This document shows, piece by piece, positions 21,001 through 27,000 of a stretch of 64,000 nt of DNA; within the stretch, counting starts at the first letter, position 1, and each line of letters opens with the position of its first letter. The position numbers are program-made. The DNA lies in the IMG/VR virus record IMGVR_UViG_2541047426_000030. One strand, written 5' to 3'. The stretch is from a virus. Lineage: Duplodnaviria > Heunggongvirae > Uroviricota > Caudoviricetes.

Positions 21001-24000
21001 ACGCCCCGACGCTGGCTGGTCAGAATATCGGTTTCAGCTCTGAGTTTATCTCTGGCGGCGTTGATTCTTTCCCGGTCAGCACGAAGTTTTGGTGCTGTCT
21101 CAGCCAGGACGTCCAGCGTCAGCAATGAGCGTTCAATTGACTCGATACGGGCAATATTCCGGTCAAGGGCCTGTTCAGCTTTGAGTATTTTGTCGTAAAG
21201 AGCAACACGGGTTTCCACGTCAGTTGCCTCTTCCAGGTCGGCGAACATCCCTTTAAGTGCCTTAGTTACTGAAAGTGCGCGGGCCCGGGTGAACACCAGT
21301 TCATCGAACAGCACCATGTCGGACGCATCATCCATGAGGTTATCTGCCTCAAGATACTTCGCATATCCACGGTGTCTTACGGCGTGGGTGTTTCGCTGAG
21401 AAAAAGCGTTTGAAGGTGGTAAAAGTCGGGAACCACGAATCCGTTTCGTTTCTGCCGAATTTGCGCAGTTTTTTTCAGAGTTTTTTGCGCATTTTTCATC
21501 GCCGGAACCCGCGTCATTGCAGGGTTCTTCATCTGAGATGTCATGATCGATTTCATGATCGGTTTTATGATCAATTTCATGATCGATTTTGCCCATTTTT
21601 ATACGGGTTCTGGCGGTGTTGTAATTAATCTTTTTCTTCCGGCACCAGTCCAGTAATGTTATTCCCGTTTCGGCATGTTCGCGTCGGAATGCCTGCTCCA
21701 GCTTTTTCCAGTCCAGCTTTGCCATGTCACGTTCTGACGTCCTGTGTTAAAAACTGATGCATAATGACCGCTGTGATTTTTCAGATTTCACACAGCAGCA
21801 CCATATTTGATCGATATTTGCACAATGCGGTTGTTTTATCCGGTTTCTTCCACCACCGCACCGGACAGGCGGCTTCGCGGGAAATCGCTCCCATCTCGTG
21901 AAAAATGAGAAAACCCGGTGTGCATCGTTTTTGATTATCCCCGCACACTCCCGCAGAGAAGTTCCCCGTCAGGGCTGTGGACATAGTTAATCCGGGAATA
22001 CAATGACGATTCATCGCACCTGACATACATTAATAAATATTAACAATATGAAATTTCAACTCATTGTTTAGGGTTTGTTTAATTTTCTACACATACGATT
22101 CTGCGAACTTCAAAAAGCATCGGGAATAACACCATGAAAAAAATGCTACTCGCTACTGCGCTGGCCCTGCTTATTACAGGATGTGCTCAACAGACGTTTA
22201 CTGTTCAAAACAAACAGACAGCAGTAGCACCAAAGGAAACCATCACCCATCATTTCTTCGTTTCTGGAATTGGGCAGAAGAAAACTGTCGATGCAGCCAA
22301 AATTTGTGGCGGCACAGAAAATGTTGTTAAAACAGAAACCCAGCAAACATTCGTAAATGGATTGCTCGGTTTTATTACTTTAGGCATTTATACTCCGCTG
22401 GAAGCGCGGGTGTATTGCTCACAATAATTGCATGAGTTGCCCATCGATATGGGCAACTCTATCTGCACTGCTCATTAATATACTTCTGGGTTCCTTCCAG
22501 TTGTTTTTGCATAGTGATCAGCCTCTCTCTGAGGGTGAAATAATCCCGTTCAGCGGTGTCTGCCAGTCGGGGGCCGGTTGCATTATCCACGCGGGCGGTG
22601 CCGGTGGCTTCACGCACGGGACCTGGACAGGTGGCGTTGATCCGCAGGCTGCGGTAACCAGCGGCAACGTCAGCGCGAAGAGTTTCATTTTCAGCTCTCG
22701 CATCGGCTAATTCCCTCGAGTATCTGGCATCAAGTGCAGCAACATCACGCTGGCGCTGCTGCATATCAGTAATGGTTGCATTTGCCAGCTCCAGCTCACT
22801 GACTTTTTTATCGCGCTGCTCTTTGTAGGTTATGGCGTTATCGCGGTAATGATTCAGCCCCAGACTAAGCGCACCACAGGCTACCAGCAGGACAATAATC
22901 ACCACACACAGAACACGGTTCATCTCTCTTTCACCCCACCAGTCCCGATAACGTCAGGACTCGCCAGGCGGTGGAAAAGAAAATGGCAACCAGCATGACT
23001 AAAAATGAAATGCCGACGATTACACAGAGGATCTTCGCCAGCGTTATGAGTTTATCCGATATCATTAGCCACCACTCCATCAATCCGCCTTTGTTATTTT
23101 CCCTTTGCCTGTATCAGCCAGGACAAAATCAATCAGCAGATTCGCTTCGTTTATCAATGTGCGGATTTTTGATACATGCGCGGATTTAACCTGTTTCCAC
23201 TCATTCAGCCCGGTAGCAAACACACTGGCAATGTTTTTATCCCGTTTCATGTCAGCGCAAGCCTGATTGAGTTCTTCCATCACACTCATTCGACGGGGAT
23301 TAACGACAAAACCCTTCGTCCAGTATTCATAGAGAACATCGTCACACTCTTCCTGATACTGGATTACCTTGCCGCGGATTTCGGGTTTTACTTTGTTGGG
23401 ATTGATGGTTTGTAACCAGCCTGCAAGTTTTCGAAGCGGCAGGGACACCATATTGCGTCGTTTCCCATCCTCAGCAACCATAACGATTTCCGTTATAGTT
23501 GACGCAAAACGCTGTCTTAACTTAGCCAACTGTGATTGCCAGGCCAGCCCCATCCCCGCAACGACAGGTTTCATGGGAACGTATGGTTCGCCGTTATGGT
23601 TAACCACATAAAGAGAATCGCCGTGAAACGGCACGGTCATCATGAACCGCCCCGGAAATCCTGGAGACTAAACTCCCTGAGAAAGAGGTAAACAGGATGA
23701 CTAAAAATACTCGTTTTTCCCCCGAAGTCCGTCAGCGGGCGATTCGTATGGTTCTGGAAAGTCAGGATGAATATGACTCACAGTGGGCGGCAATTTGTTC
23801 CATTGCCCCAAAGATTGGCTGTACGCCGGAGACTCTGCGTGTCTGGGTTCGCCAGCATGAGCGGGATACCGGGGGCGGTGATGGTGGGCTCACCAGCGCT
23901 GAACGTCAGCGTCTGAAAGAGCTGGAACGTGAAAATCGTGAACTGCGCCGCAGTAACGATATCCTTCGCCAGGCTTCCGCTTATTTTGCGAAGGCGGAGT

Positions 24001-27000
24001 TCGACCGCCTCTGGAAAAAATGATGCCACTGCTGGATAAGCTGCGTGAGCAGTACGGGGTCGGACCGGTATGCAGCGAACTGCATATTGCCCCGTCAACG
24101 TATTACCATTGTCAGCAACAGCGACATCATCCGGATAAACGCAGTGCCCGTGCGCAGCACGACGACTGGCTGAAGAGAGAGATACAGCGCGTATACGATG
24201 AAAATCATCAGGTGTACGGTGTGCGTAAAGTCTGGCGTCAGTTGTTACGGGAAGGAATCAGGGTGGCCAGATGTACAGTGGCACGTCTCATGGCGGTTAT
24301 GGGACTTGCCGGTGTTCTCCGGGGTAAAAAGGTCCGTACGACCATCAGCCGGAAAGCCGTTGCCGCAGGCGACCGCGTAAACCGTCAGTTCGTGGCAGAA
24401 CGACCTGACCAGCTGTGGGTGGCTGATTTTACTTACGTCAGCACATGGCAGGGCTTCGTCTATGTGGCGTTTATCATTGATGTGTTTGCCGGATACATCG
24501 TGGGGTGGCGGGTCTCATCGTCTATGGAAACGACATTCGTGCTGGATGCGCTGGAGCAGGCGTTGTGGGCCCGTCGTCCGTCTGGCACCATCCATCACAG
24601 CGATAAAGGCTCTCAGTATGTGTCACTGGCCTATACGGAGCGACTAAAAGAAGCCGGATTACTGGCATCAACAGGGAGTACAGGCGACTCGTATGACAAC
24701 GCGATGGCTGAGAGCATCAATGGTCTTTACAAAGCGGAGGTAATACACCGTAAGAGCTGGAAAAACCGTGCAGAAGTGGAACTGGCCACACTAACGTGGG
24801 TGGACTGGTATAACAATCGACGATTGCTGGGAAGGCTGGGCCATACTCCTCCGGCAGAAGCAGAAAAAGCTTATTATGCTTCCATCGGAAACGATGATCT
24901 GGCAGCCTGAGTTCACAGATAAAACACTCTCCAGGAAACCCGGGGCGGTTCATCATATTCATCGGTTATTTCCTTTTAGTGATGAACCCTGCGCACAGGA
25001 ATAACCAGCCCAAAGAGGGTTAACCAGACCACTGCCGGTTATCCACCAGGGCTCATCCTGAAAGGTTCTTTGGTTTATTTACGCTTGTGCGAAGCGCAGA
25101 AATGACAAAGGCACCATTACGGTGCCTCTTCATGAAACAATCTTGTTGACTTTATTCACTTACATTTTGCCAGTTCGCAGGATTTCGTGTTATCTGCCCG
25201 CGTTGGCCAACGTCATTTTTCAGCAAAATATTCTGCTTACCTGTCGATACCCCAGCATGCCAGCGCACTCTCCTGGTCACGTCTTGATACCTGACCGTAA
25301 CAGTTGTTTGAACGGATACGGCAGTCTCTGCCACCGTCCTTAATCCACCAGCGAATCGCCTCACACGCTCCCCTGCGATCGCCTGCATTAAGCCGCTTAT
25401 AAAACGTCGACGGGAAACACTTACCGGGGCCAATGTTATAGGGGCAAAATGACGCGATACCTGCTTTTTGTGGCTCGGTCAGTGGAACTTTTATATTACG
25501 CTCCACCCATGCCAGCGCCTTATCCCGTTCGATAGCGTTAACCCGGTCGCATTTTTCCTTCGACAGCTTCATGCCAGGAATCACAGGCTTACCATCCACC
25601 CGGGTGGCTCCACGGCAGATGGTCCAGATACCCGCACCATCACGGTATGCCGTGGTGTGGTTACCTTCCTTTTCATCCAGAAACTGGTCGAGGATTTCAG
25701 GCGCAGAAGCACCTGCGGCAATCAGCGCCAGAACGGCAGCCGATAAACCATAGCGGAGTTTCCTGCTCATCAGCTTACTCTCCCCGTGCCGCCTTACGCC
25801 GGTCTTCTTTAATCTTGAAATACAGGTTCGTCAGATATGTCAGCAGACCAAACAGCAGACTCCCCAGCACGCCTATTGCCGCCCACTGAGACGGGGAAAC
25901 CCTGTCCAGCAACTGCAGGAACCAGTAGCCCGTTCCCACCGCTGACGTGGTGTATGACACACCTGTTGTGATTTTTTCCATCTGGTACATACCCCGTCTC
26001 CCGCAATCCGGAAGCTCACAACAATAAAAAAGACCACCGGCACACACCGATGGTCCCTGACGCATGCTTACATCATCATGTCGCTGTCCGGTGTGGGGTC
26101 ACCGCTATCTGAAGCACTCCCCTCACCCGCGATGCCTTCCGGCTCCGGAGCTGCCGGTGCGCCCAGCAGTTCATCCAGAATGGCATCCACTTCTGCATCA
26201 AGACGCGCTTCCAGGTTATGGCGAAGTTTCTGTTTCAGTGCGCTCCGGACTTCTTCAGAGCGCAGGACGTCCTTCACTGCCTCTGCAGTGACCAGGGATG
26301 TAATTTCTGACATGGGATTTTCTCGTCGAAAGGTGTGATTAAGAAAGTTGCCGCTAAATGAGCGGCTCTTCGGGTTTGCTTCCGGCTGACTGACTGGCGC
26401 TGATTTTCTCAGCGGCCCTTTTGTCAATCTGTCTGCGCCAGAAGTCACGCATGGCCCTGTACCCACCCGAAAGGAGATACAGCACACAGACCACCGTACA
26501 GAAGTACAGCATTAACTGGTTCAGAAATGTCATAATTTCTTTCCGTTATTGTTGACAATAAGAACTGTTTTCATTAAAAACCAGAGTACGAAAGTATCGT
26601 TCCTTTATTTTTTCTCCATAGGTATCACCACCGCCAGCGTCCATTCCTGTCGCTGGCGGTTTTTTTATCATGCCGCAGTGTCTGTGCTGTTCACTTCCAC
26701 CGCAATGCTGTCAATCAGCACCGGGTAAGTCGCACCTCTGGTAATGTCTGTCACATGCAGTTTATCCGCCGCAAAGGCACTGACCGGTGACTGCGTCAGC
26801 GTGAACGGTGTGCCATCCTGACCATCAATAACCGGCGTCACCTGAAGGCTGTTATTCCCGGCAAAGCGGAAAGCCAGCGTATGCCATTCGTTATCAAATG
26901 CGCCAAAGCTTCCCAGTTTCAGGTTGTTTGTCGCCACTTTCGCATTGTGGTACATCACATTCAGGTCTTTTGCATCTGTCTGGATGTAGAACGCTGCCAG

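What the first reader, a model, noticed from the sequence alone, without database searches (positions are those of the whole stretch)
23080..24975. IS629 insertion separates the AntA-like antirepressor from its native start codon and RBS
IS629 (1310 bp, target duplication TCA) sits inside codons 3-4 of the antirepressor gene. The native ATG with its AAGGA RBS remains at 24960-24975, now fused to antisense IS sequence (ORF 24717..24962). The gene body retains an ATG formed partly by the IS terminal base but has only IS sequence upstream, so the antirepressor is probably silenced or placed under IS outward transcription, which could change induction behaviour.
Basis: seen in the sequence. Interest (0 to 1): 0.6.

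Follow-up and report, generated by a model that had tools for sequence, protein, structure and literature searches.

The report
IS629 beheads a late phage gene
A mobile element (IS629) has landed in the third and fourth codons of an accessory "antirepressor-like" gene in the late operon of a Shiga-toxin-2a prophage; this real, already-sequenced strain polymorphism probably weakens that gene's translation but is unlikely to change when the prophage switches on.

Summary
A 1,310-bp IS629 (23643-24952, TCA duplication) splits codons 3-4 of a 189-codon gene. Deleting the IS and one TCA restores a sequence 100% identical to hundreds of uninterrupted alleles. The native ATG and AAGGA now head an 81-codon nonsense ORF. 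The gene body keeps an ATG made from the terminal IS base.

The protein has P22_AR_N and ORF11CD3 domains, not AntA, and its function is untested. It lies between endolysin R and spanin Rz in the Q-dependent late operon, so it is made after induction is decided. No promoter-like site faces it from the IS. Folding predicts a more buried start codon (about 19-20 versus 7-9 kcal/mol), which is weaker but within the range of working phage genes.

The same insertion is in published phages PA8 and VT2phi_272, where papers call it "intergenic". PA8 is viable and induces more readily than its sister PA2.

One extra result came out of the comparison. PA2 (6 bp missing) and strain F765 (1 bp added) carry unique alleles at this exact site. 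Each equals the IS allele after a deletion between 4-nt repeats, so both look like natural IS629 excision scars.

Overall this is an ordinary, near-neutral IS polymorphism.

The parts
23643..24952 (+). IS629 (IS3 family; NCBI's PGAP pipeline names it 'IS1203 family'), 1,310 bp, apparently intact
   Evidence: Ends TGAACCGCCCCGG / CCGGGGCGGTTCA. Transposase has HTH_Tnp_1, HTH_21 and rve domains and matches NF033516, IS3 family. 100% identical to the region annotated IS629 in VT2phi_272 and PA8.
23640..23642 (.). Left copy of the 3-bp target-site duplication (TCA)
   Evidence: Removing the IS and one copy restores the common allele exactly.
24953..24955 (.). Right copy of the 3-bp target-site duplication (TCA)
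23697..24023 (+). IS629 orfA
   Evidence: 108-aa ORF with HTH_Tnp_1.
24020..24910 (+). IS629 orfB (DDE/rve catalytic part, made by -1 frameshift fusion with orfA)
   Evidence: 296-aa ORF with rve domain. PGAP annotates a programmed frameshift in identical copies.
23978..24094 (+). ALIL frameshift-stimulating pseudoknot of the IS
   Evidence: Rfam RF01497, 121.5 bits, E 2.4e-32.
23080..23643 (-). Body of the Ant-like gene: 187-codon ORF MMTVPF..., whose first ATG is the IS-terminal base plus TG of the duplication
   Evidence: Pfam P22_AR_N and ORF11CD3. PHROG 524 'anti-repressor Ant'. PGAP calls it an intact protein, WP_000989259.1.
24960..24975 (-). Orphaned native translation start of the Ant-like gene: ATG 24962..24960 and AAGGA 24975..24971
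   Evidence: Conserved in alleles of 86-100% identity. The corresponding ATG and a near-identical RBS (AAAAGGAATCAACC) are used by a different cassette gene in strain ECO2947. P27 annotates an RBS at the corresponding place.
24717..24962 (-). Hybrid 81-codon ORF: native start and first 3 codons fused to antisense IS sequence
   Evidence: No Pfam family.
22931..23080 (-). 49-codon hydrophobic ORF whose ATG overlaps the ant stop codon (TGATG), so it may be translationally coupled to ant
   Evidence: Sequence read. PGAP CDS WP_000455406.1. PHROG 4906, function unknown.
22459..22923 (-). Rz spanin (downstream late gene; Rz1-like ORF embedded at 22518-22703)
   Evidence: Pfam Phage_lysis, 1.6e-49; ORFs.
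25237..25770 (-). Endolysin R (upstream late gene)
   Evidence: Pfam Phage_lysozyme, 6.3e-25.
25107..25129 (-). Terminator-like hairpin in the R-ant spacer (10-bp stem)
   Evidence: Consensus scan only; function not tested.

Best explanation
An intact IS629 copy transposed into codons 3-4 of a 189-codon accessory gene, duplicating TCA. The gene encodes a protein with P22_AR_N and ORF11CD3 domains, one of the domain-shuffling 'Bro network' proteins that annotators label Ant. It lies between endolysin R and spanin Rz in the Q-dependent late operon of a PA8/VT2phi_272-type Stx2a prophage.

The insertion is a translational decapitation:
- The conserved Shine-Dalgarno sequence and ATG now drive an 81-codon nonsense ORF that runs antisense into the IS.
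- The gene body keeps a chance ATG-ATG start, formed from the terminal IS base and the duplicated target.
- That start sits behind IS sequence that lacks a canonical, well-spaced Shine-Dalgarno sequence and buries the start codon in a hairpin.

Inferred: mRNA for the gene still arrives by Q-antiterminated read-through from pR' across the IS, antisense to the transposase. The essential terminase and structural genes lie further downstream, and the phage is viable.

The net effect is therefore probably a lower yield of a protein two residues shorter, and possibly of the overlapping 49-codon ORF. The gene is late and dispensable, being frameshifted or IS-hit in other strains. The insertion is thus best read as a near-neutral lineage marker, not a modifier of the prophage's own induction.

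What is shown: the anatomy, the empty site, the operon position and the population distribution. What is inferred: reduced translation, read-through transcription and the lack of a phenotype.
For: - **Clean insertion.** The anatomy and target duplication are. The reconstructed empty site is 100% identical in many phage and E. coli records.
- **Native start.** It is conserved across diverged alleles, and the corresponding ATG and RBS serve a different cassette gene.
- **Late-operon position.** Gene order is Q, tRNAs, stx2AB, nanS-p, S, R, [IS], ant, 49-aa ORF, Rz, terminase, portal, capsid.
- **No promoter.** No sigma-70-like site on either strand of 22900-25300.
- **No upstream extension or coupling.** There is an in-frame TAG 27 nt upstream, and no ORF ends near the new start.
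- **Buried start.** Opening cost is 19-20 kcal/mol in the IS state and 7-9 natively. Other phage genes average 10.8 +/- 4.2, and the result holds for three context lengths.
- **Phage viability.** PA8 and VT2phi_272 carry this exact structure. A WG5::PA8 lysogen exists, and MG1655::PA8 lysogens were made (PMC10810198).
- **No sign of an induction effect.** PA2 has an RBS-linked ant but a disrupted methyltransferase. It reaches PA8's spontaneous induction and virulence when the methyltransferase is supplied (PMC10810198 abstract).
- **Gene is dispensable.** Strain 472 has a frameshifting 13-bp duplication. 95NR1 has an IS in the 3' end. F765 is frameshifted.
- **Rarity.** The exact junction is in 14 of 5,426 complete genomes. 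The 187-aa product is seen on 49 contigs and the 189-aa product on at least 999.
Against: - There are no expression data of any kind for this allele. A search of the PA8 RNA-seq supplements found no matching phage-gene rows.
- The folding estimate is crude. The IS end offers a G-rich Shine-Dalgarno-like tract as strong as the native one (-5.9 versus -5.6 kcal/mol), and Rz scores worse than the IS-state ant. Translation could therefore be close to normal.
- The protein's function is unknown. A late-made antirepressor could still act in trans on co-resident prophages, as shown for Salmonella Gifsy prophages (PMC3121763, title and abstract only), and MG1655 single lysogens would not reveal that.
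- The PA2/PA8 complementation was not designed to test ant and has limited resolution.
Confidence: 0.6

Rival explanations
1. The insertion is functionally silent for ant, as the literature's label 'intergenic' implies. The IS end fortuitously supplies both the A of a new ATG and a G-rich Shine-Dalgarno-like tract. A protein lacking only Met-Asn is then made at roughly normal late levels.
For: - The Shine-Dalgarno-like pairing of CCGGGGCGG is -5.9 to -7.1 kcal/mol, against -5.6 for the native site.
- The P22_AR_N domain starts at residue 3 of the shortened protein.
- PA2 naturally encodes the same 187-aa protein behind the native RBS.
- PGAP annotates the ORF as intact.
- Working genes such as Rz and Q have comparable predicted opening costs.
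Against: - The pairing is interrupted, and its 3' end lies only about 2-4 nt from the ATG.
- The predicted opening cost is 10-12 kcal/mol above native in all three context lengths, and second highest of 25 starts.
- Rz, the one gene that scores worse, may be translationally coupled to the ORF ahead of it. The IS-state ant has no upstream ORF ending nearby.
Confidence: 0.25
2. One reading: loss of the native start silences the antirepressor, or IS-borne outward transcription drives it constitutively. Either way the prophage's induction threshold and Stx2 output change.
For: - The gene is separated from its start signals.
- PA8-type strains have higher spontaneous induction than PA2 (PMC10810198).
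- Antirepressors can trigger induction in other systems (PMC3121763, title and abstract only).
Against: - The gene is in the late operon, downstream of Q, stx2, S and R, so it is made after the decision.
- No promoter-like site is present in or near the left IS end.
- In the IS3-family junction-promoter model (from my own knowledge, not tested here), the outward-facing -35 element is in the right end, which here points away from ant.
- The PA2-PA8 difference is complemented by the methyltransferase alone.
- The protein lacks the P22_AR_C domain, and no arc, mnt or P_ant context is present.
Confidence: 0.08
3. The site works as a reversible genetic switch. IS629 insertion and excision promoted by the IS-excision enhancer (IEE) toggle expression of ant and the coupled 49-aa ORF, with selectable consequences such as cross-talk with co-resident prophages.
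For: - Four allelic states occur at this one site within a phage lineage that differs by only about 0-2 substitutions (estimated from bit scores) over 24.9 kb.
- The PA2 and F765 alleles are unique among 5,426 genomes. Each equals the IS allele minus a deletion between 4-nt microhomologies, and precise excision has a 7-nt repeat available.
- IEE has microhomology-mediated end-joining activity (PMC9943667).
Against: - There is no evidence that any state differs in fitness or phenotype.
- The gene's function is unknown.
- The direction of change for the intact alleles is unresolved.
- IS gain and loss are expected to be common and neutral in O157.
Confidence: 0.07

Closest known systems
IS629 insertion of Stx2a phages PA8 (KP682374, type PST2-2) and VT2phi_272 (HQ424691 / NC_028656)
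   Same: The sequence is 100% identical over window 22400-25800, including both IS junctions. It is the same element at the same site. Yin et al. 2015 place it at PA8 position 31,540 (PMC4587872), and it is used as a comparator in Gong et al. 2023 (PMC10810198).
   Different: Both papers call the site 'intergenic' or 'non-coding'. Comparison with uninterrupted alleles shows it lies inside codons 3-4 of the 189-codon ant-like ORF. The window also carries an ISEc8-like insertion at 10716-13156, which phage PA2 lacks. That junction is otherwise found only in strains CEC01302 and CEC01311.
IS629 / IS1203 (IS3 family insertion sequences of Shigella and Shiga-toxin-producing E. coli)
   Same: 1,310 bp, TG...CA ends, 3-bp duplication, orfA/orfB with the ALIL frameshift pseudoknot, and a DDE (rve) transposase.
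   Different: Nothing structural. The copy differs at 2 positions from the IS629 copy in phage PA2.
Phage P22 antirepressor Ant (immI region)
   Same: Shares the N-terminal P22_AR_N domain (Pfam 8e-45). Annotators call it Ant on that basis.
   Different: No P22_AR_C domain; the C-terminal part is ORF11CD3. It is 187-189 aa, whereas I recall P22 Ant as about 300 aa. It sits in the lysis cassette of the late operon rather than in an immI module with arc, mnt and P_ant. Repressor binding has never been tested. The ant gene studied in phage phi24B is described as resembling P22 Ant mainly in the C-terminal domain (PMC3064807), a domain this protein lacks, so it appears to be a different gene.
IEE-promoted IS629 excision with microhomology-mediated end joining
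   Same: The PA2 (6 bp deleted) and F765 (1 bp added) alleles equal the IS-bearing allele after deletions of 1,319 and 1,312 bp between 4-nt repeats (ATGA, ACCG) at the IS boundaries. IEE has end-joining activity at 2-6-nt microhomologies in vitro (PMC9943667).
   Different: These are natural alleles inferred to be scars. Neither the ancestry nor the presence or activity of iee in these strains was tested here. Each allele could also arise from the intact allele by simple slippage.

Membership tests
IS629 (IS3 family) | About 1.3-kb element with terminal inverted repeats ending 5'-TG...CA-3' | tested here: met
   1,310 bp. The first 13 nt of the two ends are perfect inverted repeats (TGAACCGCCCCGG).
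IS629 (IS3 family) | 3-bp direct target duplication and a restorable empty site | tested here: met
   TCA/TCA. The reconstructed empty site is 100% identical in many uninterrupted phage and genome records.
IS629 (IS3 family) | orfA/orfB with programmed -1 frameshift and a DDE (rve) transposase | tested here: met
   HTH_Tnp_1; HTH_21 + rve. NF033516 IS3 family, 316 bits. ALIL pseudoknot RF01497, 121.5 bits.
IS629 (IS3 family) | Nucleotide identity to named IS629 copies | tested here: met
   100% identical to the element annotated IS629 in VT2phi_272. 99.85% identical to the IS629 of phage PA2. The ISfinder reference itself was not available.
P22-type antirepressor (Ant, immI) | P22_AR_N N-terminal domain | tested here: met
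   Pfam PF10547, E 8.3e-45, residues 3-111.
P22-type antirepressor (Ant, immI) | P22_AR_C C-terminal domain | tested here: not met
   No hit at E <= 0.01. The C-terminal part matches ORF11CD3 instead.
P22-type antirepressor (Ant, immI) | immI-like context (own promoter, arc/mnt regulators) | tested here: not met
   The neighbours are R, a 49-aa hydrophobic ORF and Rz. No promoter-like site was found.
P22-type antirepressor (Ant, immI) | Binds and inactivates a CI-type repressor | not testable with these tools
   No experimental data were found for this late-operon protein in the papers searched. No relative has a solved structure.
AntA/AntB antirepressor (Pfam AntA, PF08346) | AntA domain | tested here: not met
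   Pfam scan at E <= 0.01 returns only P22_AR_N and ORF11CD3.
Lambdoid Q-dependent late operon gene | Same strand and position between Q/pR'-proximal genes and the packaging/structural genes | tested here: met
   Gene order in the identical PA8 prophage: Q, tRNAs, stx2AB, nanS-p, S, R, [IS], ant, 49-aa ORF, Rz, terminase, portal, capsid, all on one strand.
Lambdoid Q-dependent late operon gene | No promoter of its own | tested here: inconclusive
   The consensus scan found 0 sites in 22900-25300. A consensus scan cannot exclude weak or non-sigma-70 promoters.
IEE/end-joining IS629 excision scar (PA2 and F765 alleles) | The allele equals the IS-bearing allele minus a deletion bounded by short direct repeats at the IS ends | tested here: met
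   PA2: 1,319 bp deleted, repeat ATGA. F765: 1,312 bp deleted, repeat ACCG. Precise excision: 1,313 bp, repeat ATGATGA.
IEE/end-joining IS629 excision scar (PA2 and F765 alleles) | Descent from an IS-bearing ancestor | tested here: inconclusive
   Both alleles are unique among 5,426 genomes. Both lie in the roughly 23-genome phage lineage in which 13 isolates carry the IS. The phage has too few SNPs to root a tree, and the ISEc8 marker was uninformative.
IEE/end-joining IS629 excision scar (PA2 and F765 alleles) | iee gene present in the host strains | not tested
   No IEE query sequence was at hand. The literature reports IEE in more than 33% of E. coli assemblies (PMC9943667).

The most novel reading that the evidence does not exclude
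The 5' end of this late Ant-like gene may be a naturally reversible IS629 site with functional consequences. Within one nearly clonal Stx2a phage lineage it occurs in four states:
- intact;
- IS-interrupted, without its RBS;
- 6 bp deleted, so the native RBS is fused to the shortened ORF (PA2);
- 1 bp added, giving a frameshift (F765).

The last two appear to be microhomology-mediated excision scars.

The bolder reading adds two claims. First, the late-made protein acts in trans, for example on repressors of co-resident prophages. Second, IS gain and loss therefore tunes prophage cross-induction and toxin output in strains with several prophages. It would also mean that phage PA2 descends from a PA8-like ancestor, so the widely used PA2/PA8 pair differs at ant as well as at the methyltransferase gene.

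I put the scar interpretation alone at about 0.7. The probability given here is for the full functional reading.
Probability: 0.08. Interest if true: 0.6.

Novelty: already known. Interest (0 to 1): 0.3.

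Why it matters
Little changes for phage biology. This is a known IS629 polymorphism in a late accessory gene of unknown function, and the available evidence argues against an effect on induction or Stx2 output.

Two modest points are useful:

1. **The published description should be corrected.** The PA8/VT2phi_272 insertion is called 'intergenic', but the IS sits inside codons 3-4 of the ant-like ORF and removes its ribosome-binding site. PA2 and PA8 are used as a near-isogenic pair to study Stx prophage induction. They therefore differ at this gene as well as at the methyltransferase gene.

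2. **The site offers a natural record of IS629 insertion and likely excision.** It shows insertion, precise restoration or ancestral intactness, and two imprecise microhomology junctions. That is the in-vivo outcome predicted from the end-joining activity of IEE, and it can be tested directly with the WG5::PA8 lysogen.

Tried and rejected
- **Expression data.** I searched the supplements of the PA8 lysogen RNA-seq paper (PMC6580645) for phage product names. No matching phage-gene rows were found in the files held.
- **Promoters.** The scan of 22900-25300 found nothing on either strand, so IS-driven transcription is not supported, though weak promoters cannot be excluded.
- **Translational coupling or an extended ORF.** Neither applies. 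There is an in-frame TAG 27 nt upstream, and the nearest minus-strand ORF ends 58 nt before the ATG.
- **Protein function.** The PDB sequence search found no meaningful relative. NCBIfam has no model for the protein. Literature searches for a tested function of the lysis-cassette ant gene gave annotation only. The 'functional antirepressor' of phi24B resembles P22 Ant mainly in the C-terminal domain, which this protein lacks, so it appears to be a different gene.
- **Placing PA2 and F765 inside the IS-bearing clade.** The phage early region differs by only about 0-2 substitutions across the lineage, estimated from bit scores. The ISEc8 insertion in the window occurs only in CEC01302 and CEC01311. 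Neither can root the events.
- **Searches not run.** I left out the large protein-database homologue searches and structure prediction, because their answers would not change the verdict.
- **An early count corrected.** I first counted 15 genomes with the junction. PNUSAE151637 turned out to have an intact ant with IS629 67 bp upstream, so the count is 14.

Full report
**1. What is in the sequence**

Reading 22700-25400 and listing ORFs shows a 1,310-bp element at 23643-24952.
- It begins TGAACCGCCCCGG and ends CCGGGGCGGTTCA.
- It is flanked by TCA at 23640-23642 and 24953-24955.
- It carries orfA (23697-24023) and orfB (24020-24910), with HTH_Tnp_1, HTH_21 and rve domains.
- It matches the NCBIfam IS3-family model.
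- It contains the ALIL frameshift pseudoknot at 23978-24094 (Rfam, 121.5 bits).

The region 22400-25800 is 100% identical to phages PA8 (KP682374) and VT2phi_272 (HQ424691), where the element is annotated IS629.

**2. It is a clean insertion into a gene**

Deleting the IS and one TCA gives a 300-bp junction that is 100% identical in many uninterrupted alleles. At 99% identity or better there are 293 E. coli records and 139 phage records.

On the minus strand the restored gene starts AAAAGGAAATAACCG ATG AAT ATG ATG ACC (MNMMTVPF..., 189 aa). The duplicated triplet is nt 8-10, so the IS lies within codons 3-4.

Three results support this ATG and its AAGGA as the native start.
- They are invariant in alleles whose flanks and coding sequence differ by up to 14%.
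- Phage P27 annotates an RBS at the corresponding place.
- In strain ECO2947 a different gene, 231 aa with an ANT/KilAC domain, occupies the same slot. It uses the corresponding ATG and a near-identical RBS, and homology to the window stops 2 nt into the ORF.

In the window, the native start now heads an 81-codon ORF (24962..24717) that runs antisense into the IS and has no Pfam match.

The gene body (23643..23080, 187 aa, MMTVPF...) starts with an ATG whose A is the terminal IS base. An in-frame TAG lies 27 nt upstream, and no other minus-strand ORF ends nearby.

**3. What the gene is**

Pfam finds P22_AR_N (8e-45) and ORF11CD3. It finds no AntA, P22_AR_C or ANT domain. PHROGs places the protein in family 524, 'anti-repressor Ant'. 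NCBIfam has no model for it, and no relative has a solved structure.

These domains belong to the domain-swapping 'Bro network' (PMC10111431). The Ant label is homology-based annotation, and I found no functional test of this gene. The antirepressor studied in phage phi24B resembles P22 Ant mainly in the C-terminal domain, which this protein lacks, so it appears to be a different gene (PMC3064807).

**4. Where the gene sits**

In the identical PA8 prophage the gene order on one strand is: Q, three tRNAs, stx2A, stx2B, nanS-p, DUF1378, DUF826, holin S, endolysin R, [IS629 on the opposite strand], ant, a 49-codon ORF, Rz, then terminase, portal and capsid.
- The gene is therefore part of the Q-dependent late transcription unit.
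- The 49-codon hydrophobic ORF overlaps the ant stop codon (TGATG), so it may be translationally coupled to ant.
- No sigma-70-like promoter was found on either strand of 22900-25300.

**5. Likely consequence**

*Transcription (inferred).* The phage is viable. A WG5::PA8 lysogen genome exists, and MG1655::PA8 lysogens were made (PMC10810198). Because essential packaging genes lie downstream, late transcription must cross the IS. From established knowledge of lambdoid Q antitermination, such complexes read through terminators. Ant mRNA should therefore still be made late.

*Translation (predicted).* The native start has AAGGA with a 7-8-nt spacer (-5.6 kcal/mol) and an opening cost of 7-9 kcal/mol. 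The IS-adjacent start has only an interrupted G-rich pairing, whose 3' end lies about 2-4 nt from the ATG. That start is sequestered in a hairpin, with an opening cost of 19-20 kcal/mol in three context lengths. Twenty-four other starts in the same phage average 10.8 +/- 4.2, with a maximum of 23.8 for Rz.

So initiation is predicted to be clearly weaker. It is not outside the range of working genes, so 'silenced' is not established.

**6. Does it change induction?**

Probably not, for two reasons.
- The gene is made only after Q acts.
- PA2 and PA8 are near-identical phages. PA2 has an RBS-linked ant but an IS629-disrupted methyltransferase. Supplying the methyltransferase on a plasmid raises PA2's spontaneous induction and virulence to PA8 levels (PMC10810198).

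The gene is also often damaged elsewhere:
- a 13-bp tandem duplication in strain 472;
- an IS629 in its 3' end in strain 95NR1;
- a frameshift in strain F765.

A trans effect on other prophages cannot be excluded.

**7. What is already known**

Yin et al. 2015 list this insertion at PA8 position 31,540 'within an intergenic region' (PMC4587872). Gong et al. 2023 repeat 'intergenic' and 'non-coding'. The insertion is therefore already published. The new point is only that it lies inside the ORF and removes its translation start signals.

The exact junction is rare:
- It occurs in 14 of 5,426 complete E. coli genomes, which are 13 isolates plus WG5::PA8.
- The 187-aa product is on 49 contigs, against at least 999 for the 189-aa form.

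**8. Side result: probable excision scars**

The phage lineage carrying this IS is nearly clonal. It differs by about 0-2 substitutions over window 25300-50200, estimated from bit scores, in roughly 23 natural genomes. Within it the site has four states.

| State | Where found |
|---|---|
| IS present | 13 isolates |
| Intact 189-aa allele | 3-5-1, ERL03-1416, ERL06-2442, ERL06-2503, CEC03102, 27_141091, 61_150228 |
| 6 bp deleted (ATGAATATGATGACC becomes ATGATGACC) | PA2 and its derivatives only |
| 1 bp added (ATGATGAACCG) | F765 only |

Both odd alleles equal the IS-bearing allele after a deletion between 4-nt repeats at the IS boundaries.
- PA2: 1,319 bp deleted between ATGA repeats.
- F765: 1,312 bp deleted between ACCG repeats.
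- Precise excision would use a 7-nt ATGATGA repeat.

IEE, which promotes IS629 excision, has microhomology-mediated end-joining activity (PMC9943667).

Each allele could also arise from the intact allele by simple slippage. However, both are unique, both sit at the exact insertion point, and both occur in the same small lineage. That makes excision the better explanation, at about 0.7. In PA2 the scar puts the native RBS directly in front of the same 187-aa ORF.

**9. Other context**

IS629 has inserted at six different sites between the 3' end of R and the 3' end of ant in different genomes. All six have the transposase antisense to the late operon, and each has a 3-bp duplication. This looks like a local hotspot with an orientation bias, although six events are few.

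**10. Verdict**

This is a known, probably near-neutral IS629 polymorphism that decapitates a late accessory gene. Interest is low to moderate. The value lies mainly in correcting the 'intergenic' description and in the natural excision-scar series.

Noticed in passing
window 23640-24962; L013:3330-3345 (phage PA2); L016 (strain F765, NZ_AP026082 around 3148990): Two alleles, each unique among 5,426 genomes, sit exactly at the IS629 site in the same near-clonal phage lineage: PA2 lacks 6 bp and F765 has 1 extra bp (a frameshift). Each equals the IS allele minus a deletion between 4-nt microhomologies (ATGA; ACCG), so they are probably IS629 excision scars. The IS is also flanked by a fortuitous 7-nt repeat, ATGATGA, that would favour precise excision.
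   Followed up: yes
L003, L004 (two copies), L005 and L023, corresponding to about window 23100-25300: Together with the window's own insertion, IS629 has inserted at six sites between the 3' end of R and the 3' end of ant in different E. coli genomes. All six have the same orientation (transposase antisense to the late operon), and each has a 3-bp duplication. This may be a local hotspot with an orientation bias (two-sided chance about 0.03).
   Followed up: partly
window 10716-13156: An IS66-family (ISEc8-like) element with TnpA, TnpB and an IS66 transposase is inserted next to or within a phage gene annotated as a DUF6682 family protein. It is absent from phage PA2. Among complete genomes this junction occurs only in CEC01302 and CEC01311, which suggests the window comes from that sub-lineage.
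   Followed up: partly
L010:210-905 (strain ECO2947), corresponding to window 24958-25105 upstream region: A different 231-aa gene with an ANT/KilAC domain occupies the same slot between R and Rz. Homology to the window stops 2 nt into the ORF, and the gene uses the corresponding ATG and a near-identical RBS. The cassette exchange boundary is therefore right at the start codon.
   Followed up: partly
window 22931-23080 (-): A 49-codon hydrophobic ORF (PHROG 4906, function unknown) overlaps the ant stop codon (TGATG) inside the lysis cassette. It may be translationally coupled to ant, and so affected by the IS.
   Followed up: no
window 25107-25129 (-): A terminator-like 10-bp hairpin lies in the R-ant spacer within the late operon. 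It could separate S-R from ant-Rz for transcripts that are not Q-modified.
   Followed up: no
L007 (strain 472, NZ_CP018245): The ant gene is frameshifted by a 13-bp tandem duplication (AACCATAACGGCG) after codon 16. This is unrelated to the IS and is another sign that the gene is dispensable.
   Followed up: yes
window 50456-51133 (+): A second gene annotated 'antirepressor protein' in phage PA2 lies in the early-left region next to a HigA-like gene. It has no Pfam match and is unrelated to the late ant-like gene.
   Followed up: no
L014 (KP682371) versus window 24959-54031: The 454-era PA2 phage record differs from the window by 10 mismatches and 1 gap over 29 kb (24959-54031). The later complete PA2 genome scores within about one mismatch of the best-matching genomes over 25300-50200. 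Some differences in the old record may therefore be sequencing errors.
   Followed up: no
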